NCBI GenBank assembly: GCA_020348925.1
Contig: CP070758.1
Span: 4,231,688-4,295,687, forward strand
Reading direction: 5' to 3'
Source: Gemmatimonadota bacterium
Lineage (GTDB): Bacteria; JBHIER01; G020348925
DNA length: 64,000 nucleotides
Part shown: in pieces, positions 7,880 through 24,256 of the stretch
How positions within the stretch are numbered: position 1 is the stretch's first letter
Layout of the letters: every line of letters begins with the position of its first letter
Translations under genes and position numbers: made by a program
Notes under the pieces: model-generated
The model's database searches: none
The model's input: only the letters and a program-made list of their open reading frames with translations
What the model was told of the DNA's origin: nothing

Positions 7880-7969
7880 CGTAATTGAAATCCTTTGCAG
7901 GGCATAAACCTTCGGTCTAAAAGAAAGAAAATAAGACCTGAGATCCCGGATGAAGGAGGGCTCGAGAAT

Positions 7970-9916: not shown

Positions 9917-9936
9917 ACGAGAGGAGGAAGTACAGT

Positions 9937-11106
9937 ATGAGTGACGAAACCATGGAAAGAGCACGAACACATTTTGAAACCCTCGTCAATGAACAACTCG
10001 AACGCGTTGAGCGCATGAAGCAGGCCGAGGACTGGATCGATTACAGCACCCTGAAACCGATCATTGTCGGTGTCTGCTGGGGTGATGGTATTGGACCCAT
10101 CATCTCCCAGGAAACCCAGCGAATCCTCGAGTTCCTGCTCGCAGACGAGCTGAAAAGTGGAAAGGTCGAGTTCCGGACCATCGAGGGACTGACCATCGAG
10201 AACCGGGCCAAGCACAAGAAAGCCATTCCTGATGATGTGCTGGAGGAGCTCAAGGCCTGTCATGTCATACTCAAGGCCCCCACGACAACCCCTGAAAAGG
10301 GCGACCAGTGGCCCAACATCGAGAGCGCCAATGTTGCCATGAGGCGATACCTGGACCTCTTCGCCAACGTCAGGCCGGTCAAGGTCCCCCAGGAAGGCAT
10401 CGACTGGATCTTCTTCCGTGAAAACACGGAAGGGGCCTACGTTCTGGGCAGCAAGGGAATTCAGGTCACCGAGGATCTGGCCTTCGATTTCACCGTCACC
10501 ACGAAGCAGGGGGCCGAGCGGCTCATCCGCCTTGCCTTTGATCACGCCAAGAAGAACAACATCGACTATGTCACCATCGTCACGAAGGCCAACGTGGTGA
10601 AGACAACCGACGGACTGTTCCTTGAAACGGCCGCTCGGGTGGCCAAGGATTATCCGGGCATCCGCTGGGAGGGCTGGTACATCGACATCATGACGGCCAA
10701 GCTCGTCGATCCCAAACGGCGCACCCAGTTCAGGGTCATTGCCCTCCAAAACCTCTACGGTGACATTCTCACCGACGAGGCGGCCGAATTCCAGGGCGGC
10801 GTCGGAACGGCCGGCAGCGCCAACATCGGCAAGCGCTACGCCATGTTCGAGGCCATCCACGGTAGCGCTCCCCGGATGATTAAGGAAGGGCGCGGCAAAT
10901 ACGCCGACCCGTGCAGCCTCATCCGGGCCGGAGCCATGATGCTCAACCACATCGGATTTACCGAGAAAGGGAAAAAGCTCGAAATGGCCCTCGACATCTG
11001 CGGTCAGTACGAAAAGAAACTCACCATCACTGGCCGTGATACGGGGTGTACAGGTGAGGAGTTCGGAAACTATCTCATGGAGACTATGCAGGACCCGAAC
11101 CTGTAA
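9937..11106 (+). CDS. icd: Isocitrate/isopropylmalate dehydrogenase family protein, probably isocitrate dehydrogenase
   Basis: GDGIGP, SANVAMRRYLDLFANVRP, RENTEGAY, KAN, NLYGDILTD and FEAIHGSAP; lies between aconitase and mdh. Confidence 0.85.
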   Translation: MSDETMERARTHFETLVNEQLERVERMKQAEDWIDYSTLKPIIVGVCWGDGIGPIISQETQRILEFLLADELKSGKVEFRTIEGLTIENRAKHKKAIPDDVLEELKACHVILKAPTTTPEKGDQWPNIESANVAMRRYLDLFANVRPVKVPQEGIDWIFFRENTEGAYVLGSKGIQVTEDLAFDFTVTTKQGAERLIRLAFDHAKKNNIDYVTIVTKANVVKTTDGLFLETAARVAKDYPGIRWEGWYIDIMTAKLVDPKRRTQFRVIALQNLYGDILTDEAAEFQGGVGTAGSANIGKRYAMFEAIHGSAPRMIKEGRGKYADPCSLIRAGAMMLNHIGFTEKGKKLEMALDICGQYEKKLTITGRDTGCTGEEFGNYLMETMQDPNL

Positions 11107-11145
11107 TCCAAGTGGGAAGGTTACGTGAAAGGGTAATAAAGAATT

Positions 11146-11228
11146 GTAGGGACAGGGTTTATCCCTGCCCCGTTGAATAAGTTATTCTGCGGGGTCTGTC
11201 CTCGGACAGCCACAAAGACTGTCCCTCC
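11146..11228. repeat. Inverted doublet of GTAG-type REP-like palindromes
   Basis: gtagggacagggtttatccctgccccg at 11146-11172 (+) and ggagggacagtctttgtggctgtccg at 11203-11228 (-). Confidence 0.65.
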
Positions 11229-11266
11229 AACGGAGCAAAAACATACGCAGCAAAGGAGGTCACATC

Positions 11267-12220
11267 ATGTTCAACAAAATCGGTGTTGTCGGTGGTGGAA
11301 ACATCGGCGGCGTTCTGGTCCAGGAGCTGTTCAAGCGGAACCTGGCCAAGACCGTGGCCTTGATGGACGTCAAGGAGCCGGATCTGGCCAAGGGAAAATG
11401 TCTGGATATTGCTGAAGGCTCCCCCATCATTGGTGCTGATGTCAAGTATGACGGAGGGAGAGATTACGACGTTCTCAAAGGTTCTGAGATCGTCATCAAT
11501 ACGGCTGGTGTCCCCCGCACCAAGAGACCTGATGGCACCATTCCCAGCCGCGAGGAGCTGCTGGCCACGAATTTGAAGATCACGGACATGGTGGCCGAGG
11601 GCATAAAGAAGTACTGCCCCAAAGCCATCATCATCTCCATCGCCAATCCTCTGGACGCCATCGTGTATCGTCTCTACCAGCAACTGAAACCGCCGAAGCA
11701 AAAACTGATGGGAATGGCCGGTGCGCTCGACTCTTCACGCTATCGCCATTTTGTCGCTTACGAAGCCGGCGTCTCCGTGGAGAACGTCGAGGCCATGGTG
11801 CTCGGCGGCCACGGCGACACCATGGTCCCTGTCCGGAGCTGTTGCCGGGTTGCCGGTATGCCTGTCGAAAAATTTCTCGACGAGGAGAAACTGGGGGCCA
11901 TCGAAACCCGCACCCGGAAAGCCGGCGGCGAGGTCGTCGGTCTGCTCGGCGTGGGCTCGGCGTTCGTCTCGCCCTCGTGGGCGGCCCTGGACATGGTCGA
12001 AGCCATCGTCTTCGACAAGAAGAAGATCATTCCCTCCTGTGTCCTTCTGGAAGGTGAGTACGGGATCGACGGTCTCTTCATCGGTGTCCCCGCCCTTCTG
12101 GGCAAGGACGGTGTGGAGAAGATCATCGAGGTCGACCTCACCGACGACGAAAAAGAGGCCTTGAAGAAATCAGCAGCCGCCGTTCAGAAGACAGTTGATG
12201 AGGTCAAAGCAGTAGCTTAA
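11267..12220 (+). CDS. mdh: Malate dehydrogenase (LDH-like)
   Basis: GGGNIG Rossmann motif, TAGVPR, NPLD, GMAGALDSSR, LGGHGDTMVP, RTRKAGGEVV; aaggaggt RBS. Confidence 0.93.
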   Translation: MFNKIGVVGGGNIGGVLVQELFKRNLAKTVALMDVKEPDLAKGKCLDIAEGSPIIGADVKYDGGRDYDVLKGSEIVINTAGVPRTKRPDGTIPSREELLATNLKITDMVAEGIKKYCPKAIIISIANPLDAIVYRLYQQLKPPKQKLMGMAGALDSSRYRHFVAYEAGVSVENVEAMVLGGHGDTMVPVRSCCRVAGMPVEKFLDEEKLGAIETRTRKAGGEVVGLLGVGSAFVSPSWAALDMVEAIVFDKKKIIPSCVLLEGEYGIDGLFIGVPALLGKDGVEKIIEVDLTDDEKEALKKSAAAVQKTVDEVKAVA

Positions 12221-12545: not shown

Positions 12546-13892
12546 ATGGACACAGAAACATACCGGAACACACTCGACTTCAGAATCCACAACAGACTGA
12601 ACATTCATACAGCACTTTCCGAGAGCAGCCTGCTTCGTTACATACTCTTTTCTGCGCTTTATTTTGCGCAGGGATTACCCAACGGCCTGATGATGGTCGC
12701 CTTTCCCGCCTGGCTGGCCGAGCGGCAACTCGGTACTGCTGAGATCGGTTCATTCATAGCCATCGTCTCAATACCGACGAGTTTCAAATTCCTCATGGGC
12801 CCACTTCTGGATCGTTACGGTTTTCTGCCCATGGGGCGGCGACGACCGTGGGTCCTGGTGGCCCAGCTCGGATTTTTTATCACCTTCGCCTTGATATCCG
12901 GGGTATCCGATCCGGTGAAAAATCTTGATCACGTCATCTTCATAGGATTCATCGTCACCATCTTCATGACTCTGCAGGATGTGGCGGTCGACGGGCTGGC
13001 AATCGAAATTATTCCTATCGAAGAGCGGGCTCGAGCGAACGGCTTTATGTGGGGCAGCAAGACCTTGGGCATAGCCGCAGGTGCGTCAGGCGGCGGAGTG
13101 CTCCTGAGCATATTCGGATTCGGACCGACCGTTTTGACCGTGGCCATACTCATCGGACTCATCACGGTATTTCCCTTGATCCTTCGCGAACGCCAGGGTG
13201 AACGGTTCCTTCCCTGGACCCGGGGCAGAGCATCGGAGGTCGCCATTCGACTCCAGCTCCACACTTGGAAAACCTTGGGTCGCGGACTCCTTCGGGCTCT
13301 TTGGACACCGGTAAATTTCAAAGCAATCGGCGCGGCTTTCCTCTTCATGTTTGGCCTGGGTCTCCTCCAGCCGCTCCTGCCCGTTCTCTCCGTGCAGGAG
13401 CTTGGTTGGAATCACAAGGAGTTTTCGAACCTATTCGCCCTTGCCGGTATCATCGCCTGTATCGTGGGGATGTTCCTGAGTGCAACCATCCTCAATCGGC
13501 TGGGTCCAATCCGCACTCTTGTCCTCATCACGCTTCTTTTTATGATTCTTGAAATAGGCGCTGGATCAGCGATCCACGTGTGGATGACACGGACCGCATT
13601 CGCCATATTCGTAATAAGTTTTAGTATCATCAAATTTTGCGGCATCGTTGCGATTCTGGCGATGTTTATGAACATGTGCTGGAAGCGCGTCGCGGCAACT
13701 CAATTCGCGCTCTTTATGGCTTTCGCCAACTTGGGTGCTTCAGCCGGTGCCGCCCTTGCCGGACCTTTGGACACCGTTTTCGAATACGCCCACATATTCT
13801 TTCTCATGGCGTTTGTAATCGGTTTGGTCCTGCTGCTGTTGCGATCCGTCGATTTAAAAGCTCACCAAGAATACCTCAACAGCCTCGCATAA
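12546..13892 (+). CDS. AmpG-like MFS permease
   Basis: LYFAQGLP, FKFLMGPLLD, GRRRPWVL, QDVAVDG and ATQFALFMA motifs; about 12 hydrophobic segments. Confidence 0.85.
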   Translation: MDTETYRNTLDFRIHNRLNIHTALSESSLLRYILFSALYFAQGLPNGLMMVAFPAWLAERQLGTAEIGSFIAIVSIPTSFKFLMGPLLDRYGFLPMGRRRPWVLVAQLGFFITFALISGVSDPVKNLDHVIFIGFIVTIFMTLQDVAVDGLAIEIIPIEERARANGFMWGSKTLGIAAGASGGGVLLSIFGFGPTVLTVAILIGLITVFPLILRERQGERFLPWTRGRASEVAIRLQLHTWKTLGRGLLRALWTPVNFKAIGAAFLFMFGLGLLQPLLPVLSVQELGWNHKEFSNLFALAGIIACIVGMFLSATILNRLGPIRTLVLITLLFMILEIGAGSAIHVWMTRTAFAIFVISFSIIKFCGIVAILAMFMNMCWKRVAATQFALFMAFANLGASAGAALAGPLDTVFEYAHIFFLMAFVIGLVLLLLRSVDLKAHQEYLNSLA

Positions 13893-14495: not shown

Positions 14496-14795
14496 AAGTA
14501 CTTTTGGGAACAGGGACTGCGAACCATGTATCATGAATTTTCCTTGACTCATAAGTCAATTATTTTCAGAATCTAATGCAAGATACACTTGAACTATTTT
14601 TCACCCTCCTTGACATAAAATTGAAACAGTCGACCGTTTTTATTGTCTAAAATCATTAAGAAGAAAAACGAAAATGATATTATATTCACCTGATTCGATG
14701 TTCGGTCTACACATCGAGACGCAGAGAAGAGAGAAGTCGAATTTCGGGCTTTAAGAACGCAGAATGTGCGAGCAGTAAATGCAAGGAGGTCTGTC

Positions 14796-17700
14796 ATGCG
14801 TTTCCAAAGGAAGTGTCTTAAAATTTTCGAAAGATGGTATTGGCTTGTCGGTCCTGTGGCCTTTCTCTGGGTACTGCTCAGAAGCGCCACGAATCCGAAG
14901 AGGTTGACATACCCCTGCCAGCGTGCGGCTATGCCCCTTGCAGCCAATTGGGCTCTGGCCGCGATTGCACTTTTGACCGGGAGCATGGTTCTTCGAAAGT
15001 TTGCGAAGCTTTCAGCCGCGGCCGTCTTGATTGCAGGAACGATCTGGTTCATCGGAGGAATGCCCGATTTCGGCACATCCGGGATACATGAGATACCGTC
15101 TCTGCCCGTGTGGGACGTGGTCGATCCCCTCTCGAGGGTTTTCGTCATGGATGCTGTTCCGCCGACGACCGGTTCACTGGCAGCCGGTGACGCCTCCGTT
15201 CCCGACGCATATCTCTCCGATCCAGCCATCGATACGTTGGTGGCTATGCTCGAAGCCGGCGGTGTGTTCCTGCATCAAACCGCATCCCACCCCGAAGGTA
15301 TTGTCGGTGTTGACAATGTCGTCGTCATAAAGGGAAATTTCCAGTGGACCAGCAGGAACACGACGAGCACCGATCGCATCAAAGGACTTGTATGGCAAAT
15401 TTTAAATCACCCCGACGGCTTTTCCGGCGAAATACTCGTGTGTGACAACACCCAGGATCTTGGCACCGGTATCAACCACAACGACAACAACTCCGAAGAT
15501 CCCGACCAATCCATCGTCGATGTGGTCAATACTTTCTATAGCAAGGGTTACCCCCTGTATCTCCTGGACTGGGTCTCCATATGGGACGACGTGGCCTCCG
15601 AATACTCCGACGGCGATTACGATGACGGATACGTTTACGAGTCCGAGACCATGGTATCCTACCCCAAATTCCGTTCCCCTTCCGGTAACCATTACATTTC
15701 GCTTCGCCACGGTATCTGGGATTCGCTTTCAGGAGAGTACGATGCCTCCCGTCTGTGTATCATCGACTTTCCGGTGCTGAAAGCTCACTTTCGTGGCGGT
15801 TCAACCATAGCCGTCAAGAACTGGATCGGAGTACTTACGACCGCATATAGAGAGGAGCGGTACGGCGGCATCGATCCCCTGCACGACGACCTTTTCTTCG
15901 GGCCATACGCCCTGGTTGCCCGGGTCATGGCTGTGACTTTCCCCCGACTCTCCATTGTGGATGCAGCCTGGACGACGAGACAGGGTCCGATCAATCTGTC
16001 ACTGGTGGAGAATACGAGGATGCTGCTCGCTTCCACTGATCCTGTGGCAGTATCCTGGTACGCCGCAAAATTCATCCTGACACCGATCGCCGTCAATCCT
16101 TTCGAAACCGATCCGGACCGGCCGGGAGGACTGTACAATACTATCCTGGACAGGTGGACGACGTTCCTGGCCGACTCGGCAGGATTTGCCTGCACGAATA
16201 CCTCCTCGAGGATCGCTGTCTGTGACAGAACGATCCTGGGGAGCCCCTATATCTGGCTGAACGACTACACTGTGGATGACAGCCAGGGCAACAACAACGG
16301 GAGACCGGACGAAGGCGAAACCGTAAGCCTCGTCGCGACCCTGACCAACATGAACCTGGACGCAACCGGAATCTCGGTGACCCTCACGACCGACGATCCG
16401 GATGTCCAGATCATCGACCCCACTGTCGAATTCGGTGGTCTGGCCAAGGACGAAAGTATTACAAACGAGGGAAATCCATTTTCATTCTCCATCGATACTG
16501 CTACTGTCGCCCATCTCTGCCAATTTCAATTGAATATTGCAGCCGACGGTGGATACACAAAATCCTTCGACATCGAACTCATCGTCGGAACGCCCACGAT
16601 TCTCCTTGTGGACGACGATGCGGGGGTTCAATACGAACAGAACTACACACTCGCTTTGAGGACCACACAGATTTTTCCCGAGGAATGGGACGCATCCCTG
16701 ATGGGCACTCCGACCGCAGAGATATTGCAGCAGTACGAAACCGTCATCTGGTTCACCGGGGATGACCGGATCAGCACCCTGACCTCGGAAGAACAATCCG
16801 CCATTAGGACTTTGCTGGATGGAGGCGGAAAACTTCTGATCGCCGGCCAGAACATCGGTTACGATTTGGTGGAGGATGGCACGATAAGCGACGCGGACTT
16901 CTATGCCAATTACCTGCATGCCGACTACTTGAGCGATTCGGCCCAGGAGACATTCCTCTACGGGATCGCGGGCGACCCGATCTCAGGCGAATACCAATTT
17001 CTTCCCATCGGTGAAAACCAAACCTCTCCGGATGCCATTGCTCCCCGGGAAGGGGCCAGTCCCGTCTTTCTCTACCAGGTCTCCCGGGAGGCGGCTGCCA
17101 TAAAATACGATGGCGATCACAAGGTGGTCTATTTTGGCCTCGGTCTCGAGGGCATTCGACCTCTGTCCGGAGACGAGTATGAGGTTCGGGGAACGATCAT
17201 GGGGAAAATCATTCAGTGGCTCGGCTACGTCGAGACCCGGGGCGATGTGACCCAGGACGGTGCGATAGATATCCTGGACGTCCTCACGTCGGTGAATATG
17301 ATACTTGGAACGGTCCAACCGACGCCGACTCAGGAGTGGGCGGCCGATTGCAATAGCGATGGGACCGTCGATATTCTCGACGTCCTCGGCATTGTGAACG
17401 TCATTCTCGGCATCGGCACCTGTCCACCGGAAGGCACGGTCGGGATCTCCCCGACCGCTCTCAAATACATTCAATCGCTGGAATCTCTCTTGACACCTGA
17501 GAATTTTTCAACCCTCATGACCCTCATCAAGGAGGTGTACGCACCACAAAAGTACCGTCTCGCCCAGAACTACCCCAATCCCTTCAATCCCAGCACGGAT
17601 ATCAGATACCAGATACCAGACGGGAGAGATCCCGTCCGTACCACCCTAAAGATTTATAACATTTTGGGACAGGAGGTGAAAGTGTTGGTGGACGAGGTTC

Positions 17701-17825
17701 AGGAACCGGGGCATCACGCCGTCACCTGGGATGCGTCCGATGTGAGCAGTGGTGTCTATTTCTACAGACTATCAGTAAATGATGGTCAGTGGTCGGAGAC
17801 GAAGCGGATGGTGTTGATGAAATAA
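14796..17825 (+). CDS. Secreted multidomain protein: DUF362-like domain, Ig-like domain, dockerin-like repeat, C-terminal FlgD/T9SS-A-like sorting domain
   Basis: N-terminal TM segments with the P.R..YPCQRAA motif; VVIKGNFQW and PVLKAH..GSTIAVKNWIG; duplicated GDVTQDGAIDILDV / ADCNSDGTVDILDV; LAQNYPNPFNP..SSGVYFYRL..KRMVLMK tail. Confidence 0.8.
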   Translation: MRFQRKCLKIFERWYWLVGPVAFLWVLLRSATNPKRLTYPCQRAAMPLAANWALAAIALLTGSMVLRKFAKLSAAAVLIAGTIWFIGGMPDFGTSGIHEIPSLPVWDVVDPLSRVFVMDAVPPTTGSLAAGDASVPDAYLSDPAIDTLVAMLEAGGVFLHQTASHPEGIVGVDNVVVIKGNFQWTSRNTTSTDRIKGLVWQILNHPDGFSGEILVCDNTQDLGTGINHNDNNSEDPDQSIVDVVNTFYSKGYPLYLLDWVSIWDDVASEYSDGDYDDGYVYESETMVSYPKFRSPSGNHYISLRHGIWDSLSGEYDASRLCIIDFPVLKAHFRGGSTIAVKNWIGVLTTAYREERYGGIDPLHDDLFFGPYALVARVMAVTFPRLSIVDAAWTTRQGPINLSLVENTRMLLASTDPVAVSWYAAKFILTPIAVNPFETDPDRPGGLYNTILDRWTTFLADSAGFACTNTSSRIAVCDRTILGSPYIWLNDYTVDDSQGNNNGRPDEGETVSLVATLTNMNLDATGISVTLTTDDPDVQIIDPTVEFGGLAKDESITNEGNPFSFSIDTATVAHLCQFQLNIAADGGYTKSFDIELIVGTPTILLVDDDAGVQYEQNYTLALRTTQIFPEEWDASLMGTPTAEILQQYETVIWFTGDDRISTLTSEEQSAIRTLLDGGGKLLIAGQNIGYDLVEDGTISDADFYANYLHADYLSDSAQETFLYGIAGDPISGEYQFLPIGENQTSPDAIAPREGASPVFLYQVSREAAAIKYDGDHKVVYFGLGLEGIRPLSGDEYEVRGTIMGKIIQWLGYVETRGDVTQDGAIDILDVLTSVNMILGTVQPTPTQEWAADCNSDGTVDILDVLGIVNVILGIGTCPPEGTVGISPTALKYIQSLESLLTPENFSTLMTLIKEVYAPQKYRLAQNYPNPFNPSTDIRYQIPDGRDPVRTTLKIYNILGQEVKVLVDEVQEPGHHAVTWDASDVSSGVYFYRLSVNDGQWSETKRMVLMK

Positions 17826-17961: not shown

Positions 17962-19371
17962 CTAAGCGATAGAATTCAGCGCCTGATCCAGATCGGCGAT
18001 GACATCGTCCGGGTGCTCACCGCCGACGCAGAGCCGCACCATGTTGGGTGGAACGTCCGCCATACACCGGGCTTCCTCACCCTGCTGCTGATGCGTTGAA
18101 ACGGCCGGTATCGTGGCCACCGATTTGATACGACCCAGGTCCGTAGCCCGCCAGATCCGCTTCAGGCTGTCGAACATGGTTCGTGTTTGTTGTGCTCCCC
18201 CTTTCACCCGAAAGGACATGAGGTGACCGTATCGATTCACAGGCTCACCGTAGTCGTATTCCGAATCGACCAGCACCATATACTTCGCTGCCAATTCGTG
18301 TAAAGGATGAGATTGCAGTCCCAGATAATCCACCTGCTCCACCCTCGGATGCTGTTCCAAAAATTCGGCCACCTTCATAGTATTTCTGCTCAGCAGATCC
18401 ATCTTCGACCGGATGGTTCGGATATCGTTCAAGGTCAGAATGGCCTGAATGGGTGACAGACACGGGCCGTTGTCGCGATTCGGTAAAAATTTCACATATT
18501 CCGCGAAGTTCTCCTGCATCGGTGGATTGTCAAAGTTGGTCGCTATATTCTTCCTGGCAATGAGGGCTCCACTGATACCGAAACCACTGCTGGTAAGGCT
18601 TTTCGTAGCACTCTGAATGACGATATCGGCGCCCCGGGCGAGGGGCCGGAGCAGTGCCGGGGTGGCCACGGTCGTGTCGACGATCATAGGAATACCATGG
18701 GAGTGGGCCAGCTCGGTGACCGTGTCCAAGTCGAAGAAGGCCTGACCCGGATTGGATGGCATCTCGCCGTACAGAAAACGGGTGTCCTTGTCGATCCTCG
18801 AAGCCCACTCGTCAAGGTCGTGGGAGTGGACAACCCATCTGCATTCAATCCCACGATCCGTCATCTTCCGCTCGGCGAACTGTTGGAAGGTCCCACCGTA
18901 CACTTGACAGGTGGCCACGAAATTGATCTTCTCGTCGAGCTTCTTCGTCCGCCTTACAAGCAGCGGATCGATGGCGCTCATGATAGCCGCCATGCCTGAG
19001 GAGGTGGAGCAGCAGGAGGCCTCTACATCAGAACCGTAGGTTTCCAAGAGGGCGAGTGTCCATTCGAGGTAGTAGGTTGATGGGTTGGCGATGCGCGAAT
19101 AGCACCATGTCGGAATGAGGTAGGCCAGAGCTGCCTCCATTTCATCGGAATCGCGATACGCCTGGGAGGCGCTCATGAACATGGGCTCGATAATTGCCCC
19201 CTGGTTGTGGTCAAGGGATTCCTCGACCGTGTACAGACCGTGGACGGCAATCGTATCGAACTTCCACTTCTTGACGACCTCTTGGACATATCTATCGCGT
19301 TCAGCTAAAGCTTTCTTCGCTTGTTCAACATAGCGCATCACGCCCGGACTGTACGATTGTTCCTCTGACAT
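17962..19371 (-). CDS. Cys/Met-metabolism PLP enzyme (divergent O-acylhomoserine sulfhydrylase / gamma-lyase family)
   Basis: FDTIAVHG, YSRIANPS, SSGMAAI, YGGT, PSNP, DTTVATP, QSATK (PLP Lys) and VRLCVGGE; ggagg RBS before ATG 19371. Confidence 0.85.
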   Translation of the reverse strand: MSEEQSYSPGVMRYVEQAKKALAERDRYVQEVVKKWKFDTIAVHGLYTVEESLDHNQGAIIEPMFMSASQAYRDSDEMEAALAYLIPTWCYSRIANPSTYYLEWTLALLETYGSDVEASCCSTSSGMAAIMSAIDPLLVRRTKKLDEKINFVATCQVYGGTFQQFAERKMTDRGIECRWVVHSHDLDEWASRIDKDTRFLYGEMPSNPGQAFFDLDTVTELAHSHGIPMIVDTTVATPALLRPLARGADIVIQSATKSLTSSGFGISGALIARKNIATNFDNPPMQENFAEYVKFLPNRDNGPCLSPIQAILTLNDIRTIRSKMDLLSRNTMKVAEFLEQHPRVEQVDYLGLQSHPLHELAAKYMVLVDSEYDYGEPVNRYGHLMSFRVKGGAQQTRTMFDSLKRIWRATDLGRIKSVATIPAVSTHQQQGEEARCMADVPPNMVRLCVGGEHPDDVIADLDQALNSIA

Positions 19372-19504
19372 GATAGCCACCTCCCTGCGGGTAAATCAAG
19401 TCATTGAAAAATGCATAAAGTAAAAGTCACAACAAGTACTCAGTTCTATTGAATTGAATCCACCTCTTTAGAACTACCTCTTCTCACAAGACCAACGACG
19501 GTTT

Positions 19505-20917
19505 TTACAGATTAAAACAGACCACCTTCGGCTCCGTCATCTCCAACAGGGCGAACTTGAGCCCTTCGCGACCCAGACCGGAGTACTTCACGCCACCGAA
19601 GGGCATGAGATCAATGCGATAATCCGAGGAGTCGTTGATCATGATGCCGCCCACGTCGATCTCTTTGATGAGTTTAAAGGCCGTCTTGATATCTTTGGTA
19701 AAGACACCGGCGTGGAGCCCGAACCGGACATCGTTGGCCTTGGCAACGGCCTCGTCCATATCCTTCACCTTGAACAGACACACGGCCGGCCCGAAGACCT
19801 CCTCGCAGGCGATGGTGACACCCTCGGGCACATTCGACAGAACCGTCGGTTGAAAAACGGTCCCCTCACGAGTTCCACCTGTCAGGAGTGTCGCACTCTT
19901 TTCAACGGCCTCCCTCACCCACGCCTCGACCCGGGCGGCCTCGCCCTCGGTAATCATCGGGCCCATGTCCGTGTCCTCATCCAGCTGGCGACCGACCTTC
20001 ATCTTTTTCGTCCGCTCGACAAACATCGATTCGAACCGGTCATAGATCGCCTCGTGAATATAAATCCGCTGCACACCGATGCAGTTCTGACCGACGGCCC
20101 AGAAGGCGCCGGACACCGAAGATTCAACGGCCAGTTCGAGATCCGCATCTTCGGCCACAACCACGGGTGAGTTCGAGCCCAACTCCATGCCGATCTTTTT
20201 CAAGCCGGCTTTTCGCACAATCTCTTCACCGGCCTCGGTCCCGCCGGTAAAGGTGATCATTCGAACCCGCTTATCCGTAACCATGGCATCACCAATCTTG
20301 CTCCCGTATCCGGTGACGATGTTCAACACCTTGGGAGGGAGACCCGCTTCCAACAGGGCTTCACCTAACTTCAGGGCCGAGAGCGGTGTCACTGTGGCCG
20401 GCTTCAGGACGACGGAGTTGCCACCCGCTATGGCAGGACCCAATTTATGCGCAACCAGGTTGAGGGGATCGTTGAAGGGCGTGATGGCTGCGATGATACC
20501 GATGGGAAACCGGTAGTAATACCCGACGCGATTCTCGGAACCGGCCATACTATCGAAGGGTATCGTCTCTCCCAAGATCCTCCGCGCCTCCTCGGCCGCT
20601 ACCGTCATGGTCTGAGCGGCCCGGAAGGCCTCCTTTCGCGCCTCCTTAATGGTTTTACTCCCTTCGGTGGCAATCGTCCTGGCAAACTCCTCCTGTCGTT
20701 CGTCAAGGATGTTCGCCGTTCCCTTCAGTATCTCGATTCGCTTGTGGACCGGCAGATCGCGGTTGATGCGAAATCCCTCCTCAGCACTATCTATGGCCGC
20801 TTTCACATCCTTGGCCGTGCCGGACGGCACCGTATCGATGACCCGGCCATCGTAGGGATCAACAACGTTTATCTTCTCCTCTCGATCAACCCACTCTCCG
20901 TGGATGAGCATCTTCAT
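19505..20917 (-). CDS. NAD(P)-dependent aldehyde dehydrogenase
   Basis: ITPFND, KPA, FTGG, ELGSNSP (catalytic Glu), GQNCIG (catalytic Cys), EEVFGP and PFGGVKYSGLGREG. Confidence 0.93.
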   Translation of the reverse strand: MKMLIHGEWVDREEKINVVDPYDGRVIDTVPSGTAKDVKAAIDSAEEGFRINRDLPVHKRIEILKGTANILDERQEEFARTIATEGSKTIKEARKEAFRAAQTMTVAAEEARRILGETIPFDSMAGSENRVGYYYRFPIGIIAAITPFNDPLNLVAHKLGPAIAGGNSVVLKPATVTPLSALKLGEALLEAGLPPKVLNIVTGYGSKIGDAMVTDKRVRMITFTGGTEAGEEIVRKAGLKKIGMELGSNSPVVVAEDADLELAVESSVSGAFWAVGQNCIGVQRIYIHEAIYDRFESMFVERTKKMKVGRQLDEDTDMGPMITEGEAARVEAWVREAVEKSATLLTGGTREGTVFQPTVLSNVPEGVTIACEEVFGPAVCLFKVKDMDEAVAKANDVRFGLHAGVFTKDIKTAFKLIKEIDVGGIMINDSSDYRIDLMPFGGVKYSGLGREGLKFALLEMTEPKVVCFNL

Positions 20918-20932
20918 AGTATTCTCTCCTGT

Positions 20933-21967
20933 CTACTTTTTCAAGGTTCTGTGTATATCCAGCAGATCGGTCAAGACGCTGTATCCGGTCTCGCGTTTGC
21001 CTGCACCTGCGCCCACGACCGTCACCTGACCCAGCAGATCGGTATCAAAGGTCAAGGCATTGGTGGCCCCTCCGACGCCGGCCAGGGGATCGCTCGTAGG
21101 AATCATCTCCGGCGACACTTTGGCCTTGATGGAACCGTTCTCTTTTCTGGTCTGACCGATGAGTTTCCAGCGTTTCCCCGCATCCTTGGCCTTTCGGATA
21201 TCCTCCAGCGTTATCTTCGTAATGCCTTCACGCTCTACATCGGAGACCTTCAAGGCTCCACCCATGACGACATTGGACAGAATGAGTACTTTCGCCAGGG
21301 CATCCCAGCCCTCGACATCGGCATCGGGCACGGCCTCCGCGTAGCCCAGTTCCTGAGCCTGCTTCAGGGCTGCCTCATAGCTCTGACCCTTCTCCATCTC
21401 GGTCAGGATATAGTTGGTCGTTCCGTTGAGAATCCCGCGGATTTCTCGAATATCGTTCCCCGCCAGGCAGAGGGTAGCAAGATTCACGACCGGAGTACCA
21501 CTCATCACCGTGCCTTCAATCCGAAACTGGACACCCTTCTCCTCAGCCATCTCCGCCAGCTCCTTGTAAGCCAGGGCAACCGGCCCCTTATTCGTGGTGA
21601 CGAGATGCTTGCCTGTCTCGAAGGCCGCCTTGAAATGGGACATGGCCGGCTCACCTGTCTCAATGTTCGTGAAGGAGAGTTCCACAATGATGTCGGCATT
21701 GCTCTCTGTGATGGTTTTGAGACTGTCCCAACCCTTGATTCCACGGGGATATCCTTCGATATTTCCATTCTCTGCAACCAATGACAATAGTTTTTGGATT
21801 TCCAATCCCTTTTCGTCGTAGACCGACCCTTTCTGTATGTCGGAGACAGCGACTACGGAGTAATCAAACCCGTGTCGTTTTTTGAGATCCTCCGCTTTTT
21901 CAATGAGAATCTCCACCAACCCCTGCCCCACCACACCAAAACCTACCAATGCCAGATTGTGCTTCAT
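20933..21967 (-). CDS. hom: Homoserine dehydrogenase, short form without ACT domain
   Basis: GFGVVG, VTTNKGP, GILNGTTNYIL, AQELGYAE..DVEGWDALAK and GAGKRETG; ends without a regulatory domain. Confidence 0.92.
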   Translation of the reverse strand: MKHNLALVGFGVVGQGLVEILIEKAEDLKKRHGFDYSVVAVSDIQKGSVYDEKGLEIQKLLSLVAENGNIEGYPRGIKGWDSLKTITESNADIIVELSFTNIETGEPAMSHFKAAFETGKHLVTTNKGPVALAYKELAEMAEEKGVQFRIEGTVMSGTPVVNLATLCLAGNDIREIRGILNGTTNYILTEMEKGQSYEAALKQAQELGYAEAVPDADVEGWDALAKVLILSNVVMGGALKVSDVEREGITKITLEDIRKAKDAGKRWKLIGQTRKENGSIKAKVSPEMIPTSDPLAGVGGATNALTFDTDLLGQVTVVGAGAGKRETGYSVLTDLLDIHRTLKK

Positions 21968-22021
21968 AGCAGGAGCTCCTTCCTTCAATCACACGATATA
22001 ACAGTCCTTTCCGAGAGGGAA

Positions 22022-22405
22022 TCACCCCGGAATTGTAAATATCTTGGATACTATTTTCCAACCATCCTCAAATTTGTAGAGCAGCATATAATCTGTGGAA
22101 AAATGAAGACCCCTTTTATACACATCGAGTTTGACAACTGCCGCATTGCCCGTTATGTCAACAGATTGAAAGGTATGCGTCGTCTCACCACTCCAGAGTT
22201 CCGGATTCTCCGCTTTCAATTTTTCAATCCGAGCAAACCAAGTATCGAGCGTGACTCTCTCAATGGTATTATCCTGTTTTACAAACATAATAAAATCATG
22301 ATGAAATCCTCTTCTCACGGTTCCCTCATCCTGACTTCCGTGAATTCCCTGAATATACGACGCCTCAATCACCTCTTTGATGGCCTCTTTCTCAACGTTC
22401 ACCAT
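22022..22405 (-). CDS. NTF2/SnoaL-like (putative lumazine-binding family) protein
   Basis: AIKEVI..YIQG..FH..IDITGNAAVVKL-type pattern (here VDITGNAAVVKL) and TDYMLLYK..GWKIVSK. Confidence 0.8.
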   Translation of the reverse strand: MVNVEKEAIKEVIEASYIQGIHGSQDEGTVRRGFHHDFIMFVKQDNTIERVTLDTWFARIEKLKAENPELWSGETTHTFQSVDITGNAAVVKLDVYKRGLHFSTDYMLLYKFEDGWKIVSKIFTIPG

Positions 22406-22497
22406 GATCGAATCCTCCTCTCTTCGGCAAACCTTTTAGTGCTCGAGCTCTCGAGGGGGCAGTCCATCTCGTCTTCGTAGAATAGATTTCACACATA

Positions 22498-23691
22498 TCA
22501 GAGCGTACTCAAGGCCTGCTCAAGGTCTTCCTTCAAATCCTTAAAATCTTCACACCCTACGGACAACCGGACGAGATCGTCGGTGATGCCCGCTTTTTCA
22601 CTTTCCTCATTGGACATTGCAGCATGGGTCATGGACGCAGGATGTTGGATGAGTGTCTCGATACCACCTAATGAAACAGCCAATGTCGCCAGGGAAACAG
22701 TGTTCATGATGGTCCGGCCGGCATCAAGCCCGCCTTTAACGCCGAAGCTCAACAGTGCTCCGGGTCCGTCCATCTGCCTTTTGGCCAGCTCATATTGAGG
22801 ATGGCTTCGAAGTCCGGGGTACTTCACCCAGTTGACCTTCGAGTGGTCCTCCAAGAACTTGGCCAGCTTCAGAGCATTGTCCTGGCACCTATCCATGCGA
22901 AGCGGAAGTGTTTTCAAGCCCCTCTGGACGAGCCAGGCTTGATGCGGATCGATGGTACCTCCCATGTAGTGGAGTACAGCTCGGATCTGTTTGAACACCG
23001 ACTCGTCTTTGCACACGATCATCCCGGCGACCACATCGCTGTGGCCGTTGATAAATTTCGTCATGGAATGGACGACAATATCAGCTCCCAGATCCAGTGG
23101 CCGCTGCAGATAGGGGCTCATGAACGTGTTGTCCACAGCCAAAAGGGCACCGTGCTCATGAGCGATATCGGCACACGCCTCGATATCGGTAAGAACGATG
23201 GTGGGATTTGCCGGTGTTTCGATGAAGAGAAGACGTGTGTTCGGTTTGAAGGATTGTTCCACTTCTTCGATGTTCGAGGTATTCACATATGAATACTCCA
23301 CCCCGAAGCGGGAGAAATCCCGTTCCATGACAACACGGGAGGGTCCATACAGGCAGTCGGTACTTACCATATGGAGCTCTTGACCTAAAAAGGTCATATA
23401 AACCGTCGTGACTGCAGCCATGCCGGATGAGGTCGCCAGCGCCCCGCAGCCGTTCTCCAACACCGCCACATTCTCTTCCAAAGCCTTCGTCGTCGGATTG
23501 CCCATCCGGGTATAGATGTACCCCTCAGTTTTTTGGGCAAAAAGATCCGCTCCATGATTCGCATCCTTAAAGGCAAAGGTTGATGTTTGAAAGATAGGCG
23601 TCGTGATGCTGCCCGCTGCTTCCTCCACTTGTCCCGAGTGGATTGTTTTGGAGTGAAACCCTAACTTGTCAGTGTGCGAAGCCATTTGCAT
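22498..23691 (-). CDS. Trans-sulfuration family PLP enzyme (methionine/cystathionine gamma-lyase-like)
   Basis: PIFQTSTF, YIYTRMGNPT, SSGMAAV, ETPANP, DNTF, HSMTKFINGHSDV, AVSLGG and HPASMTH. Confidence 0.9.
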   Translation of the reverse strand: MQMASHTDKLGFHSKTIHSGQVEEAAGSITTPIFQTSTFAFKDANHGADLFAQKTEGYIYTRMGNPTTKALEENVAVLENGCGALATSSGMAAVTTVYMTFLGQELHMVSTDCLYGPSRVVMERDFSRFGVEYSYVNTSNIEEVEQSFKPNTRLLFIETPANPTIVLTDIEACADIAHEHGALLAVDNTFMSPYLQRPLDLGADIVVHSMTKFINGHSDVVAGMIVCKDESVFKQIRAVLHYMGGTIDPHQAWLVQRGLKTLPLRMDRCQDNALKLAKFLEDHSKVNWVKYPGLRSHPQYELAKRQMDGPGALLSFGVKGGLDAGRTIMNTVSLATLAVSLGGIETLIQHPASMTHAAMSNEESEKAGITDDLVRLSVGCEDFKDLKEDLEQALSTL

Positions 23692-23782
23692 CCCTCGTTT
23701 TGTGAATGATTAGTGCACTGAAAATTTTGTTTCGTACTTGACAGTCCATCGGAAGCCATTTGTATTGACGCTTCTTGAGTAA

Positions 23783-24256
23783 CTACTCCACCGGAAATTT
23801 CGTTTCGTATTTCACTGTGGAAAGAATAAAAGACGTTTTAATCTTACTGAGCGCCGGCAGTTTCGTCAACTTCTTCAGAATAAAGTTTTCATACTCGTGA
23901 ATATCCTTGACGGCAACTTTGAGGACATAATCGTCTTCCCCGGTGATGTGGTAACATTCCATCACCTCAGGGATCTTTTCGATGGCGCGCGTGAACTGAT
24001 CGATGGACTTGATGCGATGACGATCCAAAGAGACGGAGACCAAGGCCATCGTTCCCTTGCCAATCGTATCCGGATCGATAAGGGCGACGTACTTCTGAAT
24101 GATCCCTTTTTTCTCCAGCTTTTTCACGCGCTCCAACATCGGCGGCGGGGATATACCCACACGGCTGGCCAATTCGGTATTGGTGATCCGCCCGTTCTCT
24201 TGAAGGATATCCAGGATCTTCCTGTCAATATCGTCAAGTTTATTATTGGTTTGCAT
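23783..24256 (-). CDS. Lrp/AsnC family transcriptional regulator
   Basis: LDDIDRKILDILQENGRITNTELA HTH, RVKKLE..GII and EV.ECYHITGEDDY.LKV RAM domain. Confidence 0.95.
   Translation of the reverse strand: MQTNNKLDDIDRKILDILQENGRITNTELASRVGISPPPMLERVKKLEKKGIIQKYVALIDPDTIGKGTMALVSVSLDRHRIKSIDQFTRAIEKIPEVMECYHITGEDDYVLKVAVKDIHEYENFILKKLTKLPALSKIKTSFILSTVKYETKFPVE

What the first reader, a model, noticed from the sequence alone, without database searches (positions are those of the whole stretch)
17962..24256. Candidate new amino-acid catabolic pathway: Lrp, gamma-lyase, SnoaL-like protein, homoserine dehydrogenase, ALDH and a second gamma-lyase
Seen: six co-oriented genes with short spacers (hom to ALDH 15 bp). 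Hom lacks an ACT domain, and no aspartokinase, asd, thrB/C or metA/metX is nearby. Established: a non-phosphorylating ALDH has no role in Met/Thr biosynthesis. In canavanine utilisation by Pseudomonas, a PLP gamma-lyase releases homoserine, which is oxidised via aspartate semialdehyde to aspartate. Inference: this cluster converts a gamma-substituted C4 amino acid (methionine, homocysteine, cystathionine, an O-substituted homoserine or a canavanine-like compound) to homoserine, runs Hom in reverse, and uses the ALDH to make aspartate, under Lrp control. I know of no description of this exact arrangement, but could not search.
Basis: partly seen in the sequence, partly recalled or inferred. Interest (0 to 1): 0.75.

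Follow-up and report, generated by a model that had tools for sequence, protein, structure and literature searches.

The report
Homoserine-to-aspartate gene cluster in sediment bacterium
A sediment bacterium carries a regulated six-gene cluster whose conserved core, a homoserine dehydrogenase next to an aldehyde dehydrogenase, most likely burns homoserine to aspartate, and the same pair recurs in many uncultured anaerobes that lack the usual first steps of the aspartate amino-acid pathway.

Summary
The six co-oriented genes are real. They encode Lrp/AsnC, an MGL-like PLP enzyme, an NTF2-like protein, an ACT-less Hom, a hydrolytic-type ALDH and a MetY-like PLP enzyme, with gaps of 91, 92, 33, 15 and 124 bp.

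The conserved unit is Hom+ALDH. Hom lies within 8 kb of this ALDH subfamily in 66 of 80 loci from more than ten phyla, and directly upstream in 48 of 80. PLP partners (36 of 80) and Lrp (22 of 80) vary. The NTF2 gene is unique to this genome.

This is the genome's only Hom. Aspartokinase, Asd, MetX, MetA, ThrB and HomK were not found, so it is not a canonical biosynthetic hom.

Best reading: homoserine -> aspartate semialdehyde -> aspartate. This pair of steps was shown with purified Pseudomonas canavaninivorans enzymes (PMC9533460).

That the PLP enzymes make homoserine is unsupported. The closest relatives of the MetY-like enzyme sit beside threonine synthase and HomK, not Hom.

Verdict: a new variant of a known kind. 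The open question is where these genomes get aspartate semialdehyde.

The parts
23783..24256 (-). Lrp/AsnC-family transcriptional regulator (157 aa), first gene of the cluster
   Evidence: Pfam AsnC_trans_reg 89.6 bits and HTH_24 77 bits. NCBIfam Lrp 138.7 bits, under the cut-off of 233. An Lrp homologue lies upstream of Hom-ALDH in 22 of 80 related loci and in the same-family genome G001.
22498..23691 (-). PLP1: methionine-gamma-lyase-like Cys/Met-metabolism PLP enzyme (397 aa)
   Evidence: Pfam Cys_Met_Meta_PP 499.6 bits. NCBIfam MGL models score 489.8 and 466.6 bits, under their cut-offs of 666 and 549.7. It scores 453 bits to the Citrobacter freundii MGL chain 4mkk. The query reads YGPS where the two mutant chains read YGAT or YGXT; that wild-type MGL has Cys there is recalled. 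A strong homologue sits between Hom and ALDH in 4 loci (L049, L058, L069, L075). It is absent between Lrp and Hom in G001.
22022..22405 (-). NTF2-like small protein (127 aa), Pfam Lumazine_bd_2; a lineage-specific insert whose role is unknown
   Evidence: Pfam PF12893 67.5 bits and no NCBIfam hit. No homologue in the 80 ALDH-anchored loci or the 80 PLP2-anchored loci at E<=1e-5. One weak paralogue in the same genome, 75 bits.
20933..21988 (-). Homoserine dehydrogenase, short form without ACT domain (351 aa from the TTG; an ATG 21 bp downstream is the likelier start)
   Evidence: NCBIfam PRK06270 451 bits, over the cut-off of 373; Pfam Homoserine_dh 211 bits. It is the only PF00742 match in the genome. 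Asp50 at the predicted beta2 end is invariant in 61 of 61 ALDH-linked Homs. Best PDB match 3do5, 216 bits.
19505..20917 (-). Aldehyde dehydrogenase (470 aa), proposed non-phosphorylating aspartate-semialdehyde dehydrogenase
   Evidence: Pfam Aldedh 534 bits. The best NCBIfam model is methanogen lactaldehyde dehydrogenase, 539 bits, under the cut-off of 650. The closest solved chains are ALDH21 succinic semialdehyde dehydrogenase (383 bits), MJ1411-type lactaldehyde DH (367) and GapN (352). Relatives are 63-93% identical across many phyla. Cys279, Glu245 and Asn149 are invariant in 22 sequences. Hom lies within 8 kb in 66 of 80 loci.
17962..19380 (-). PLP2: divergent MetY-like (O-acetylhomoserine-sulfhydrylase-like) PLP enzyme (472 aa)
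   Evidence: Pfam Cys_Met_Meta_PP 265.5 bits. NCBIfam TIGR01326 266 bits, under the cut-off of 495. Best PDB match 7kb0, 188 bits. Relatives are about 70% identical across phyla. The PLP2 type is present in 25 of 80 ALDH-anchored loci. Among the 80 closest metagenome relatives, Hom is adjacent in 1, threonine synthase in 20 and HomK in 13.

Best explanation
The cluster is an Lrp-controlled amino-acid utilisation operon built around a conserved two-enzyme lower pathway. Hom oxidises L-homoserine to L-aspartate 4-semialdehyde. The adjacent hydrolytic ALDH oxidises that aldehyde irreversibly to L-aspartate, giving two reduced nicotinamide cofactors.

In other lineages the same Hom-ALDH core is joined to different regulators, transporters and enzymes, as expected of a funnel that receives homoserine from several sources.

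In this genome the accessory genes are two sulfur-amino-acid-type PLP enzymes. One is MGL-like and one is MetY-like. At least one is proposed to handle methionine, homocysteine or a related gamma-substituted amino acid, and possibly to release homoserine by gamma-replacement with water.

Shown here: gene content, order, conservation of the Hom-ALDH pair, and absence of the canonical pathway around it. Inferred: the ALDH substrate, the direction of Hom, the effector of Lrp, and any homoserine-forming activity of the PLP enzymes.
For: (1) Linkage. In 80 loci of this ALDH subfamily, Hom lies within 8 kb in 66. It lies directly upstream on the same strand in 48, or 46 of the 74 loci with room, often with a 4-bp overlap. 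The loci come from Aminicenantes, Krumholzibacteriota, Latescibacterota, Cloacimonadota, Calditrichota, Zixibacteria, WOR-3, Fidelibacterota/Marinimicrobia, Gemmatimonadota and some archaea.

(2) The only direction in which a hydrolytic ALDH and Hom act consecutively is homoserine -> ASA -> Asp. Cys279, Glu245 and Asn149 are invariant; their catalytic roles are recalled.

(3) Not canonical biosynthesis.
- One Hom in the genome.
- No PF02774 match, and the best AK match is 38 bits.
- Profiles I built from 8 AK and 8 Asd sequences, run unfiltered over all ORFs of 60 aa or more, give best scores of 22.8 and 15.4 bits.
- No MetX, MetA, ThrB or HomK.

(4) In five chromosome-level records with the pair, AK is over the cut-off in 0 of 5.

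(5) In 151 Acidobacteriota genomes, 11 of 15 ALDH-positive genomes lack an AK match, against 22 of 136 ALDH-negative genomes.

(6) ALDH-positive genomes that do have AK carry extra, longer Homs (500- and 799-aa ORFs). These score 147-219 bits to the window Hom, against more than 340 bits for ALDH-linked ones, so the linked Hom is a separate paralogue.

(7) Asp50 is invariant in 61 of 61 linked Homs. An acidic residue at this position is the usual NAD+ marker (the rule is quoted in bioRxiv 10.1101/2021.02.09.430557, passages read).

(8) Other ASA users are co-operonic in WOR-3, which has ALDH-DapA-ThrB-Hom. Regulators (Lrp, IclR), an SNF transporter and a porin-like protein occur in clusters.

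(9) Precedent. Purified HD plus ALDH (AH, same operon as HD) plus aspartase from P. canavaninivorans convert homoserine to fumarate via aspartate, and that HD uses only NAD+ (PMC9533460, passages read).
Against: - No assay exists. The ALDH substrate is inferred from context only, and its nearest characterised relatives act on succinic semialdehyde, lactaldehyde or glyceraldehyde-3-P.
- PLP2's family looks biosynthetic elsewhere. Of its 80 closest metagenome relatives, 20 sit beside threonine synthase, 13 beside HomK (TIGR02535, 549.7 bits, over the cut-off of 446) and only 1 beside Hom. In a tree, the window's PLP2 groups with those relatives, not with the two clades of Hom-ALDH-linked PLP2s.
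- PLP1 resembles MGL, whose product is 2-oxobutyrate, not homoserine.
- DapA, ThrB and a LysA-like gene in some clusters are anabolic enzymes.
- The own genome keeps ThrC (605 bits to NF006050) and a DapA-scoring gene (343 bits).
- The genome is a MAG of about 205 pieces joined by 100-N spacers, 96.3% complete, so absences are 'not found'.
- 4 of 15 ALDH-positive Acidobacteriota do have AK.
- Related genomes are not independent samples.
Confidence: 0.45

Rival explanations
1. Homoserine-centred salvage hub. In genomes without AK/Asd, homoserine enters the aspartate-family network instead of aspartate. It is either imported or made from another amino acid. Hom runs backwards as the source of ASA for DapA (diaminopimelate/lysine). 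PLP2 builds homocysteine and ThrC builds threonine. The ALDH drains surplus ASA to aspartate.
For: AK and Asd were not found, while DapA-scoring and ThrC-scoring genes and three homocysteine methyltransferase domains are present in the own genome. WOR-3 has ALDH-DapA-ThrB-Hom-SNF transporter-cyclase-porin in one string. One Marinimicrobia locus has a LysA-like decarboxylase upstream of Hom. PLP2 relatives sit beside ThrC and HomK. ThrC is over the cut-off in 13 of 21 ALDH-positive genomes. Trypanosoma brucei keeps only homoserine kinase and threonine synthase and uses external homoserine (PMC4460637, abstract seen in the listing).
Against: The own genome has no ThrB or HomK, so no phosphohomoserine for ThrC or PLP2. 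Its DapA-scoring gene sits beside a LacI regulator and a TonB receptor, a sugar-acid context. DapA is over the cut-off in only 4 of 13 panel genomes. Co-translating a competing ALDH with Hom would waste ASA. No source of homoserine is identified.
Confidence: 0.2
2. Ordinary methionine biosynthesis. Hom makes homoserine and PLP2 makes homocysteine under Lrp control. ASA comes from an unrecognised replacement of AK/Asd. The ALDH is a safety valve or has an unrelated role.
For: Hom scores over the cut-off of the biosynthetic equivalog PRK06270. The PLP2 family is highly conserved (about 70% identity across phyla) and is linked to ThrC and HomK elsewhere. MetH-type domains are present.
Against: No AK, Asd, MetX, MetA, ThrB or HomK was found. 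An MGL-like enzyme in the same operon would undo the product. AK-positive genomes carry a separate longer Hom. The GapMind 2026 paper reports no AK/Asd replacement in the passages that match my terms (PMC13759103).
Confidence: 0.1
3. The ALDH acts on another small aldehyde, such as glyceraldehyde-3-P (GapN), lactaldehyde or succinic semialdehyde. Its adjacency to hom then reflects co-regulation or cofactor supply, not a shared intermediate.
For: One source names relatives 'glyceraldehyde-3-phosphate dehydrogenase (NADP+)'. The best NCBIfam model is lactaldehyde dehydrogenase. The closest structures are SSADH, lactaldehyde DH and GapN. SSADHs are promiscuous towards GAP and erythrose-4-P (PMC11480449, passages read).
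Against: All named models are under their cut-offs. Adjacency to Hom holds in 66 of 80 loci across phyla, often with overlapping stop and start, and with DapA in WOR-3. This points to ASA as the common metabolite. A paralogous ALDH elsewhere in the genome (464 bits) could cover other aldehydes.
Confidence: 0.1
4. Metabolite repair. Homoserine arises continuously from spontaneous or enzymatic breakdown of S-adenosylmethionine and from aminocarboxypropyl transfers (recalled chemistry). In auxotrophs without homoserine kinase it is a dead end, and Hom-ALDH recycles it to aspartate.
For: ThrB is found in only 3 of 21 and HomK in 0 of 21 ALDH-positive genomes. The pair is enriched in AK-less genomes. 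L-homoserine potently inhibits growth of E. coli (PMC9792984, abstract seen in the listing).
Against: Dedicated regulators, transporters and porins in many clusters suggest substantial external flux. The extreme conservation of the ALDH suggests a major pathway.
Confidence: 0.07

Closest known systems
Canavanine/homoserine catabolic pathway of Pseudomonas canavaninivorans and Rhizobiales (PMC9533460; passages read)
   Same: Homoserine dehydrogenase and an aldehyde dehydrogenase share an operon. The purified enzymes convert homoserine via aspartate semialdehyde to aspartate. A PLP gamma-family enzyme and a transcriptional regulator are in the locus. Rhizobial loci also carry dapA and threonine synthase, as WOR-3 loci here carry DapA and ThrB.
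   Different: Different phyla and lifestyle: anaerobic sediment lineages against aerobic Proteobacteria. No guanidine exporter, ABC importer or aspartase is in this cluster. The PLP enzymes here are MGL-like and MetY-like, and orthology to the canavanine gamma-lyase was not tested because no sequence was available. Here the Hom is the only one in the genome and AK/Asd were not found. The paper's supplements were not open to me.
Oxidation-only homoserine dehydrogenase AnHSD of Arthrobacter nicotinovorans and the Rhizobium leguminosarum homoserine locus (bioRxiv 10.1101/2021.02.09.430557; passages read)
   Same: An NAD+-preferring Hom is proposed to degrade homoserine, with a neighbouring putative ALDH proposed to oxidise ASA to aspartate.
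   Different: That family is described with Asn at the cofactor-discriminating position. The Homs here have an invariant Asp and match the archaeal-type PRK06270 model. Its neighbours are ABC importers.
Ectoine degradation doeABX-CD of Halomonas elongata (recalled; PMC3187862 appeared only in the listing)
   Same: An ALDH-family, non-phosphorylating aspartate-semialdehyde dehydrogenase (DoeC) under an Lrp/AsnC-type regulator (DoeX) returns ASA to aspartate.
   Different: There ASA comes from diaminobutyrate by transamination, not from homoserine, and no Hom is involved. DoeA, DoeB and DoeD were not looked for here.
mdeR-mdeAB of Pseudomonas putida (recalled, from no call)
   Same: An Lrp-family activator sits next to a methionine gamma-lyase gene.
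   Different: No Hom or ALDH. PLP1 here fails the MGL model cut-offs and lacks the MGL active-site Cys.
Canonical aspartate-family biosynthetic operons (asd-dapA, hom-thrB-thrC, metX-metY)
   Same: Hom, DapA, ThrB and a MetY-like enzyme appear together in some related loci.
   Different: AK and Asd were not found, and an irreversible ALDH occupies the place next to Hom. Hom has no ACT domain. MetX and MetA were not found.

Membership tests
Catabolic homoserine -> aspartate module (HD + ALDH, P. canavaninivorans type) | Homoserine dehydrogenase and a non-phosphorylating ALDH encoded side by side | tested here: met
   The gap in the window is 15 bp. Hom lies within 8 kb of the ALDH in 66 of 80 related loci.
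Catabolic homoserine -> aspartate module (HD + ALDH, P. canavaninivorans type) | Hom uses NAD+ and favours oxidation | tested here: inconclusive
   Asp at the predicted beta2 end is invariant in 61 of 61 linked Homs. This is a sequence rule only; no kinetics are available.
Catabolic homoserine -> aspartate module (HD + ALDH, P. canavaninivorans type) | ALDH oxidises L-aspartate 4-semialdehyde to aspartate | not testable with these tools
   Context only: DapA, ThrB and Hom are neighbours, and hydrolytic-type catalytic residues are present.
Catabolic homoserine -> aspartate module (HD + ALDH, P. canavaninivorans type) | A PLP gamma-lyase that releases homoserine | not tested
   Two PF01053 enzymes are present. 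Orthology to the canavanine gamma-lyase could not be tested, and PLP partners are present in only 36 of 80 loci.
Canonical aspartate-family biosynthesis | Aspartokinase and aspartate-semialdehyde dehydrogenase (Asd) in the genome | tested here: not met
   No PF02774 match and a best AK match of 38 bits. My own profiles, run unfiltered, give best scores of 22.8 and 15.4 bits. The assembly is 96.3% complete and in about 205 pieces.
Canonical aspartate-family biosynthesis | Homoserine activation by ThrB/HomK or MetX/MetA | tested here: not met
   No match for any of them in G000. The two ApgM-family proteins score 190 and 176 bits to TIGR02535, under the cut-off of 446.
Methionine gamma-lyase (PLP1) | Score over a curated MGL model cut-off | tested here: not met
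   489.8 bits against a cut-off of 666, and 466.6 against 549.7, although it scores 453 bits to a solved MGL.
Methionine gamma-lyase (PLP1) | Active-site Cys in the YGCT motif (recalled) | tested here: not met
   The query reads YGPS at the aligned place. The identity of the wild-type residue comes from recall, not from a call.
O-acetylhomoserine sulfhydrylase MetY (PLP2) | Score over the TIGR01326 cut-off, with a homoserine O-acyltransferase partner | tested here: not met
   266 bits against a cut-off of 495. No MetX or MetA in G000.
Lrp/AsnC regulators | N-terminal winged HTH plus C-terminal AsnC-type ligand-binding domain | tested here: met
   Both domains are over their Pfam cut-offs. It is not an equivalog of E. 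coli Lrp: 138.7 bits against a cut-off of 233.
Non-phosphorylating GAPDH GapN / lactaldehyde dehydrogenase (ALDH) | Score over the curated model cut-off | tested here: not met
   lactal_redase_Meth 539 bits against 650, and G3PDH_Arch 362 against 780.

The most novel reading that the evidence does not exclude
In many uncultured anaerobic phyla that lack aspartokinase and Asd, the aspartate-family network is entered from homoserine rather than from aspartate. Examples are Aminicenantes, Zixibacteria, WOR-3, Cloacimonadota and this rare lineage. Homoserine is imported, or made from methionine or threonine by Cys/Met-family PLP enzymes through the vinylglycine intermediate. Hom works backwards as the cell's only source of aspartate semialdehyde for diaminopimelate and lysine. 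A highly conserved ALDH closes the path to aspartate. The variable modules next to the core would be alternative feeders, including a TIM-barrel family with no Pfam or NCBIfam match.
Probability: 0.2. Interest if true: 0.8.

Novelty: new variant of a known kind. Interest (0 to 1): 0.6.

Why it matters
Homoserine dehydrogenase is normally read as a marker of threonine and methionine biosynthesis. Here it is the partner of an irreversible aldehyde dehydrogenase. In this genome and in most sampled carriers, the enzymes before it (and in most of them those that activate homoserine) were not found.

If the pair oxidises homoserine to aspartate, automatic annotation mis-scores amino-acid prototrophy for several abundant sediment and digester phyla. 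A widespread route for homoserine or sulfur-amino-acid carbon would also have gone unnoticed.

The pattern also makes a concrete question testable: where do AK/Asd-less bacteria with DapA get aspartate semialdehyde?

Tried and rejected
- tRNA and Rfam scans of the window found nothing.
- Promoter and terminator scans gave only consensus-level hits.
- No RNA holder was listed for the cluster, so expression is untested. Read laying gave DNA contigs only.
- Fold search of the 413-aa neighbour family gave no assignment. Foldseek TM was at most 0.37. VIA's best match was the glutamate mutase E subunit at Z 13.6, but many TIM barrels tie at about Z 12.
- I considered that the ALDH replaces AK+Asd by running in reverse. 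I rejected this on thermodynamic and mechanistic grounds (established knowledge: hydrolytic ALDHs are irreversible; Cys, Glu and Asn are present). It was not tested.
- I considered the ALDH as a ProA-like phosphorylating reductase. I rejected this because its closest relatives are GapN and SSADH types and no kinase partner is conserved.
- GapMind 2026 (PMC13759103) was searched by terms only. It has nothing on an AK/Asd replacement, and it confirms HomK as an alternative homoserine kinase.
- The Cloacimonadota survey (PMC12590816, term search) does not mention the cluster.
- Literature searches found no description of the Hom-ALDH cluster in these phyla. The library lacks most subscription journals.
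- The SSADH promiscuity paper and the ALDH21 search gave no residue-level test of substrate.
- Supplements of all papers were closed.

Full report
**What is there.**
Six ORFs lie head to tail on the minus strand between 24256 and 17962. The gaps are 91, 92, 33, 15 and 124 bp.

Pfam and NCBIfam identify them as follows:
- An Lrp/AsnC regulator.
- A Cys/Met-metabolism PLP enzyme closest to methionine gamma-lyase (PLP1). It scores 499.6 bits to PF01053, and its MGL models are under their cut-offs.
- A 127-aa NTF2-like protein (PF12893).
- A 351-aa homoserine dehydrogenase without ACT domain (PRK06270, 451 bits against a cut-off of 373).
- A 470-aa aldehyde dehydrogenase.
- A 472-aa divergent MetY-like PLP enzyme (PLP2; TIGR01326, 266 bits against a cut-off of 495).

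No terminator-like site on the coding strand lies inside the cluster. The flanking genes are convergent or divergent: a DUF362/dockerin/T9SS-tail protein and an RlmN-like radical SAM gene. Contigs of two public sediment runs of one study bridge every junction. A second study holds near-identical short pieces.

**What is conserved.**
The ALDH belongs to a tight subfamily, 63-93% identical across phyla. A scan of species genomes found 589 relatives among 598 candidate stretches, and the best 80 loci were kept. I ran phmmer with the six window proteins against all ORFs of those 80 loci.

| Feature | Loci (of 80) |
|---|---|
| Hom within 8 kb | 66 |
| Hom directly upstream, same strand | 48 (46 of 74 with at least 1.1 kb of upstream sequence) |
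| Any Cys/Met PLP enzyme | 36 |
| of these, PLP2 type | 25 |
| of these, strong PLP1 type | 5 |
| of these, a third type scoring 150-400 bits | 10 |
| Lrp | 22 |
| NTF2 gene | 0 |

Fourteen loci show no Hom, and several of them are short or truncated. A single-copy gene should fall within 8 kb of another by chance in well under 1% of genomes (inference).

The same-family genome G001 has Lrp-Hom-ALDH with nothing between Lrp and Hom. Its PLP2 lies at the start of another short contig. The unit under selection is therefore Hom+ALDH. PLP1 and the NTF2 gene are local additions.

**Variable modules.**
I clustered neighbours by all-against-all BLAST after a greedy choice of ORFs. This step lost some genes, so its counts are lower than the phmmer counts. 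Together with Pfam and NCBIfam scans it shows several recurrent partners:
- Lrp-PLP2-Hom-(PLP1)-ALDH in Calditrichota, Melioribacteraceae, Fidelibacterota and others.
- Lrp-other PLP-Hom-ALDH in Krumholzibacteriota and Latescibacterota.
- A 413-aa protein with no Pfam match, a class I/II aminotransferase, an SDR and a small cupin in Cloacimonadota, Aminicenantes and Zixibacteria. The unknown protein is in 21 loci.
- IclR-Hom-ALDH-SNF transporter-PF04199 'cyclase'-porin-like protein.
- In WOR-3, ALDH-DapA-ThrB-Hom-SNF-cyclase-porin. There DapA scores 232.7 bits against a cut-off of 206, and ThrB scores 262.7 against 194.
- One Marinimicrobia locus has a LysA-like decarboxylase upstream of Hom.

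A constant core with changing regulators, transporters and enzymes is the look of a catabolic funnel. DapA next to the pair points to aspartate semialdehyde as the shared metabolite.

**Genome context.**
The window lies in a 5.04-Mb assembly scored 96.3% complete. The 'single contig' is in fact about 205 pieces joined by 100-N spacers, so every absence below means 'not found'.

Not found in the assembly:
- Asd/ArgC domain: no match.
- Aspartokinase: only a 38-bit match.
- As an independent check, I built profiles from 8 AK and 8 Asd proteins of other genomes and ran them without filters over all 21,155 ORFs of 60 aa or more. The best scores were 22.8 and 15.4 bits.
- MetX, MetA and MetE.
- ThrB and HomK. 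The two ApgM-family proteins fail the HomK model.

Present in the assembly:
- Exactly one Hom match, which is this gene.
- ThrC (NF006050, 605 bits).
- A DapA-scoring gene (343 bits) that sits beside a LacI regulator and a TonB receptor.
- Three homocysteine-methyltransferase domains.
- A third Cys/Met PLP enzyme and two further ALDHs.

But without the steps before and after it, a biosynthetic role is hard to sustain.

**Is that pattern general?**
In five chromosome-level records from other phyla that carry the pair:
- AK is over the cut-off in 0 of 5.
- PF02774 gives no match in 2.
- PF02774 gives weak matches of 55-60 bits in 2, probably ArgC (inference).
- PF02774 gives a 111-bit match in WOR-3.

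I also sampled 151 Acidobacteriota genomes of at least 85% completeness. ALDH-positive means a match at E<=1e-150, and an AK match means E<=1e-30.

| | AK match | No AK match | Total |
|---|---|---|---|
| ALDH-positive | 4 | 11 | 15 |
| ALDH-negative | 114 | 22 | 136 |

The 114 include the two unpublished genomes G058 and G083. Without them the figure is 112 of 134. Related genomes are not independent, so this is a tendency, not a test.

In 21 ALDH-positive genomes:
- The AK-less ones have a single Hom, the linked one. G031 has two.
- Three of the four with an AK match (G045, G095, G151) carry additional, longer Homs (500- and 799-aa ORFs); G125 has a single Hom.

Those second Homs score 147-219 bits to the window Hom, against more than 340 bits for linked Homs of other phyla. 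The linked Hom is thus a distinct paralogue. All 61 of 61 linked Homs carry Asp at the end of the predicted beta2 strand, the usual NAD+ marker. The four second Homs read E, T, N and D there.

Across the 21 ALDH-positive genomes and the 13-genome panel:

| Enzyme | Genomes with it |
|---|---|
| ThrC over cut-off | 13 of 21 |
| ThrB | 3 of 21 |
| HomK | 0 of 21 |
| MetX (match at E<=1e-10; none over the 500-bit cut-off, nor in any control genome) | 2 of 13 |
| DapA over cut-off | 4 of 13 |

**Mechanism.**
The ALDH keeps the catalytic Cys (C279), the general-base Glu (E245) and the oxyanion Asn (N149), invariant in 22 sequences (the roles are recalled). Its nearest solved relatives are succinic semialdehyde dehydrogenase ALDH21, MJ1411-type lactaldehyde dehydrogenase and GapN. 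These are all hydrolytic, irreversible enzymes of short anionic aldehydes.

Such an enzyme cannot make ASA from aspartate (established thermodynamics). The only way it and Hom act in sequence is homoserine -> ASA -> aspartate.

This pair of reactions has been reconstituted from purified P. canavaninivorans proteins. There HD and the ALDH 'AH' share an operon and HD uses only NAD+. The rhizobial loci also hold dapA and threonine synthase (PMC9533460, passages read). An oxidation-only Hom with a neighbouring ALDH is described for Arthrobacter (bioRxiv 10.1101/2021.02.09.430557, passages read).

**The PLP enzymes.**

PLP1 scores 453 bits to Citrobacter MGL but reads YGPS where, by recall, MGLs have YGCT. 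MGL chemistry yields 2-oxobutyrate.

PLP2's family is about 70% identical across Planctomycetota, Armatimonadota and others. Starting from PLP2 instead of the ALDH, I examined its 80 closest metagenome relatives:

| Neighbour of PLP2 | Loci (of 80) |
|---|---|
| Hom | 1 |
| Threonine synthase | 20 |
| ApgM-family protein; the one scanned (L135) scores 549.7 bits to the 'proposed homoserine kinase' model TIGR02535 (cut-off 446) | 13 |

That family is now confirmed as HomK (PMC13759103, passages read). This context suggests a phosphohomoserine-using homocysteine synthase.

In a quick ML tree of 106 sequences, Hom-ALDH-linked PLP2s form two clades of their own. The window's PLP2 falls in the third clade with the ThrC/HomK-linked ones. 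The sampling was biased towards the window's closest relatives.

In a broad sample of 201 genomes, PLP2 occurs in 5. It is next to Hom in G000, G316 and G003.

Because this genome has no known way to activate homoserine, PLP2 cannot work here as a classical sulfhydrylase. It remains open whether it hydrolyses a gamma-substituted amino acid to homoserine, sulfhydrylates free homoserine, or is a relic.

**Verdict.**
The cluster is real. Its core is best read as a homoserine -> aspartate oxidation module under Lrp control (confidence 0.45). The main rival is a homoserine-centred salvage hub that also feeds ASA to DapA (0.2).

The kind is known from Proteobacteria and Actinobacteria. New here are:
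- Its wide spread in uncultured anaerobic phyla.
- Its tendency to occur in genomes without AK/Asd, where it is the sole Hom.
- The variable feeder modules.

My literature searches found no description of it in these lineages. Supplements were closed, and most subscription journals are not in the library.

Noticed in passing
L091:7329-8570 and 20 further loci (e.g. L025:15349-16605, L032:5042-6328): A conserved family of about 413 aa (62-88% identity to L091, mean column identity 78%) with no Pfam match sits next to Hom-ALDH in 21 loci, often with a class I/II aminotransferase, an SDR and a small cupin. AlphaFold gives a confident TIM barrel (pLDDT 85.9). Fold searches give no clear relative; the best is the glutamate mutase E subunit at Z 13.6, nearly tied with many TIM barrels. 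It is absent from the window's genome.
   Followed up: partly
L087:10001-16279 (also L079, L083, L096): WOR-3 genomes string ALDH, DapA, ThrB, Hom, an SNF-family transporter, a PF04199 'cyclase'-family hydrolase and a porin-like secreted beta-rich protein in one direction. This looks like an uptake-plus-distribution locus for homoserine or a precursor.
   Followed up: partly
G000 whole genome: The genome is presented as one contig but is about 205 pieces joined by 100-N spacers (20,500 N in all). The window lies on a piece of about 117 kb.
   Followed up: yes
21 ALDH-positive genomes: Threonine-synthase-scoring genes are present in 13 of 21 genomes, but a known homoserine kinase (ThrB or HomK) in only 3 of 21. 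Either an unknown kinase exists or these ThrC-like proteins do something else.
   Followed up: no
window 14766-17825 (+): A 1019-aa protein combines DUF362, a dockerin type I domain and a T9SS C-terminal sorting domain. Its tail region (about 17534-17800) recruits very many unrelated contigs when reads are laid, as expected of a widespread sorting domain.
   Followed up: no
window 30523-36639 (+) and 45890-51868 (+): Two giant ORFs of 2038 and 1992 aa. The first lies in a low-GC stretch (0.38-0.42 against about 0.5-0.55 elsewhere) with strong positive GC skew.
   Followed up: no
window 7895-12220 (+): An aconitase-family protein (673 aa), an isocitrate/isopropylmalate-type dehydrogenase and a malate/lactate dehydrogenase lie in a row, followed by an MFS transporter at 12546-13892. 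No link to the cluster was seen.
   Followed up: no
L066:4281-5567: In a Marinimicrobia locus an Orn/DAP/Arg-decarboxylase-family gene (LysA-like, or carboxyspermidine-decarboxylase-like) lies directly upstream of Hom-ALDH. This is another enzyme of ASA-derived metabolism.
   Followed up: no
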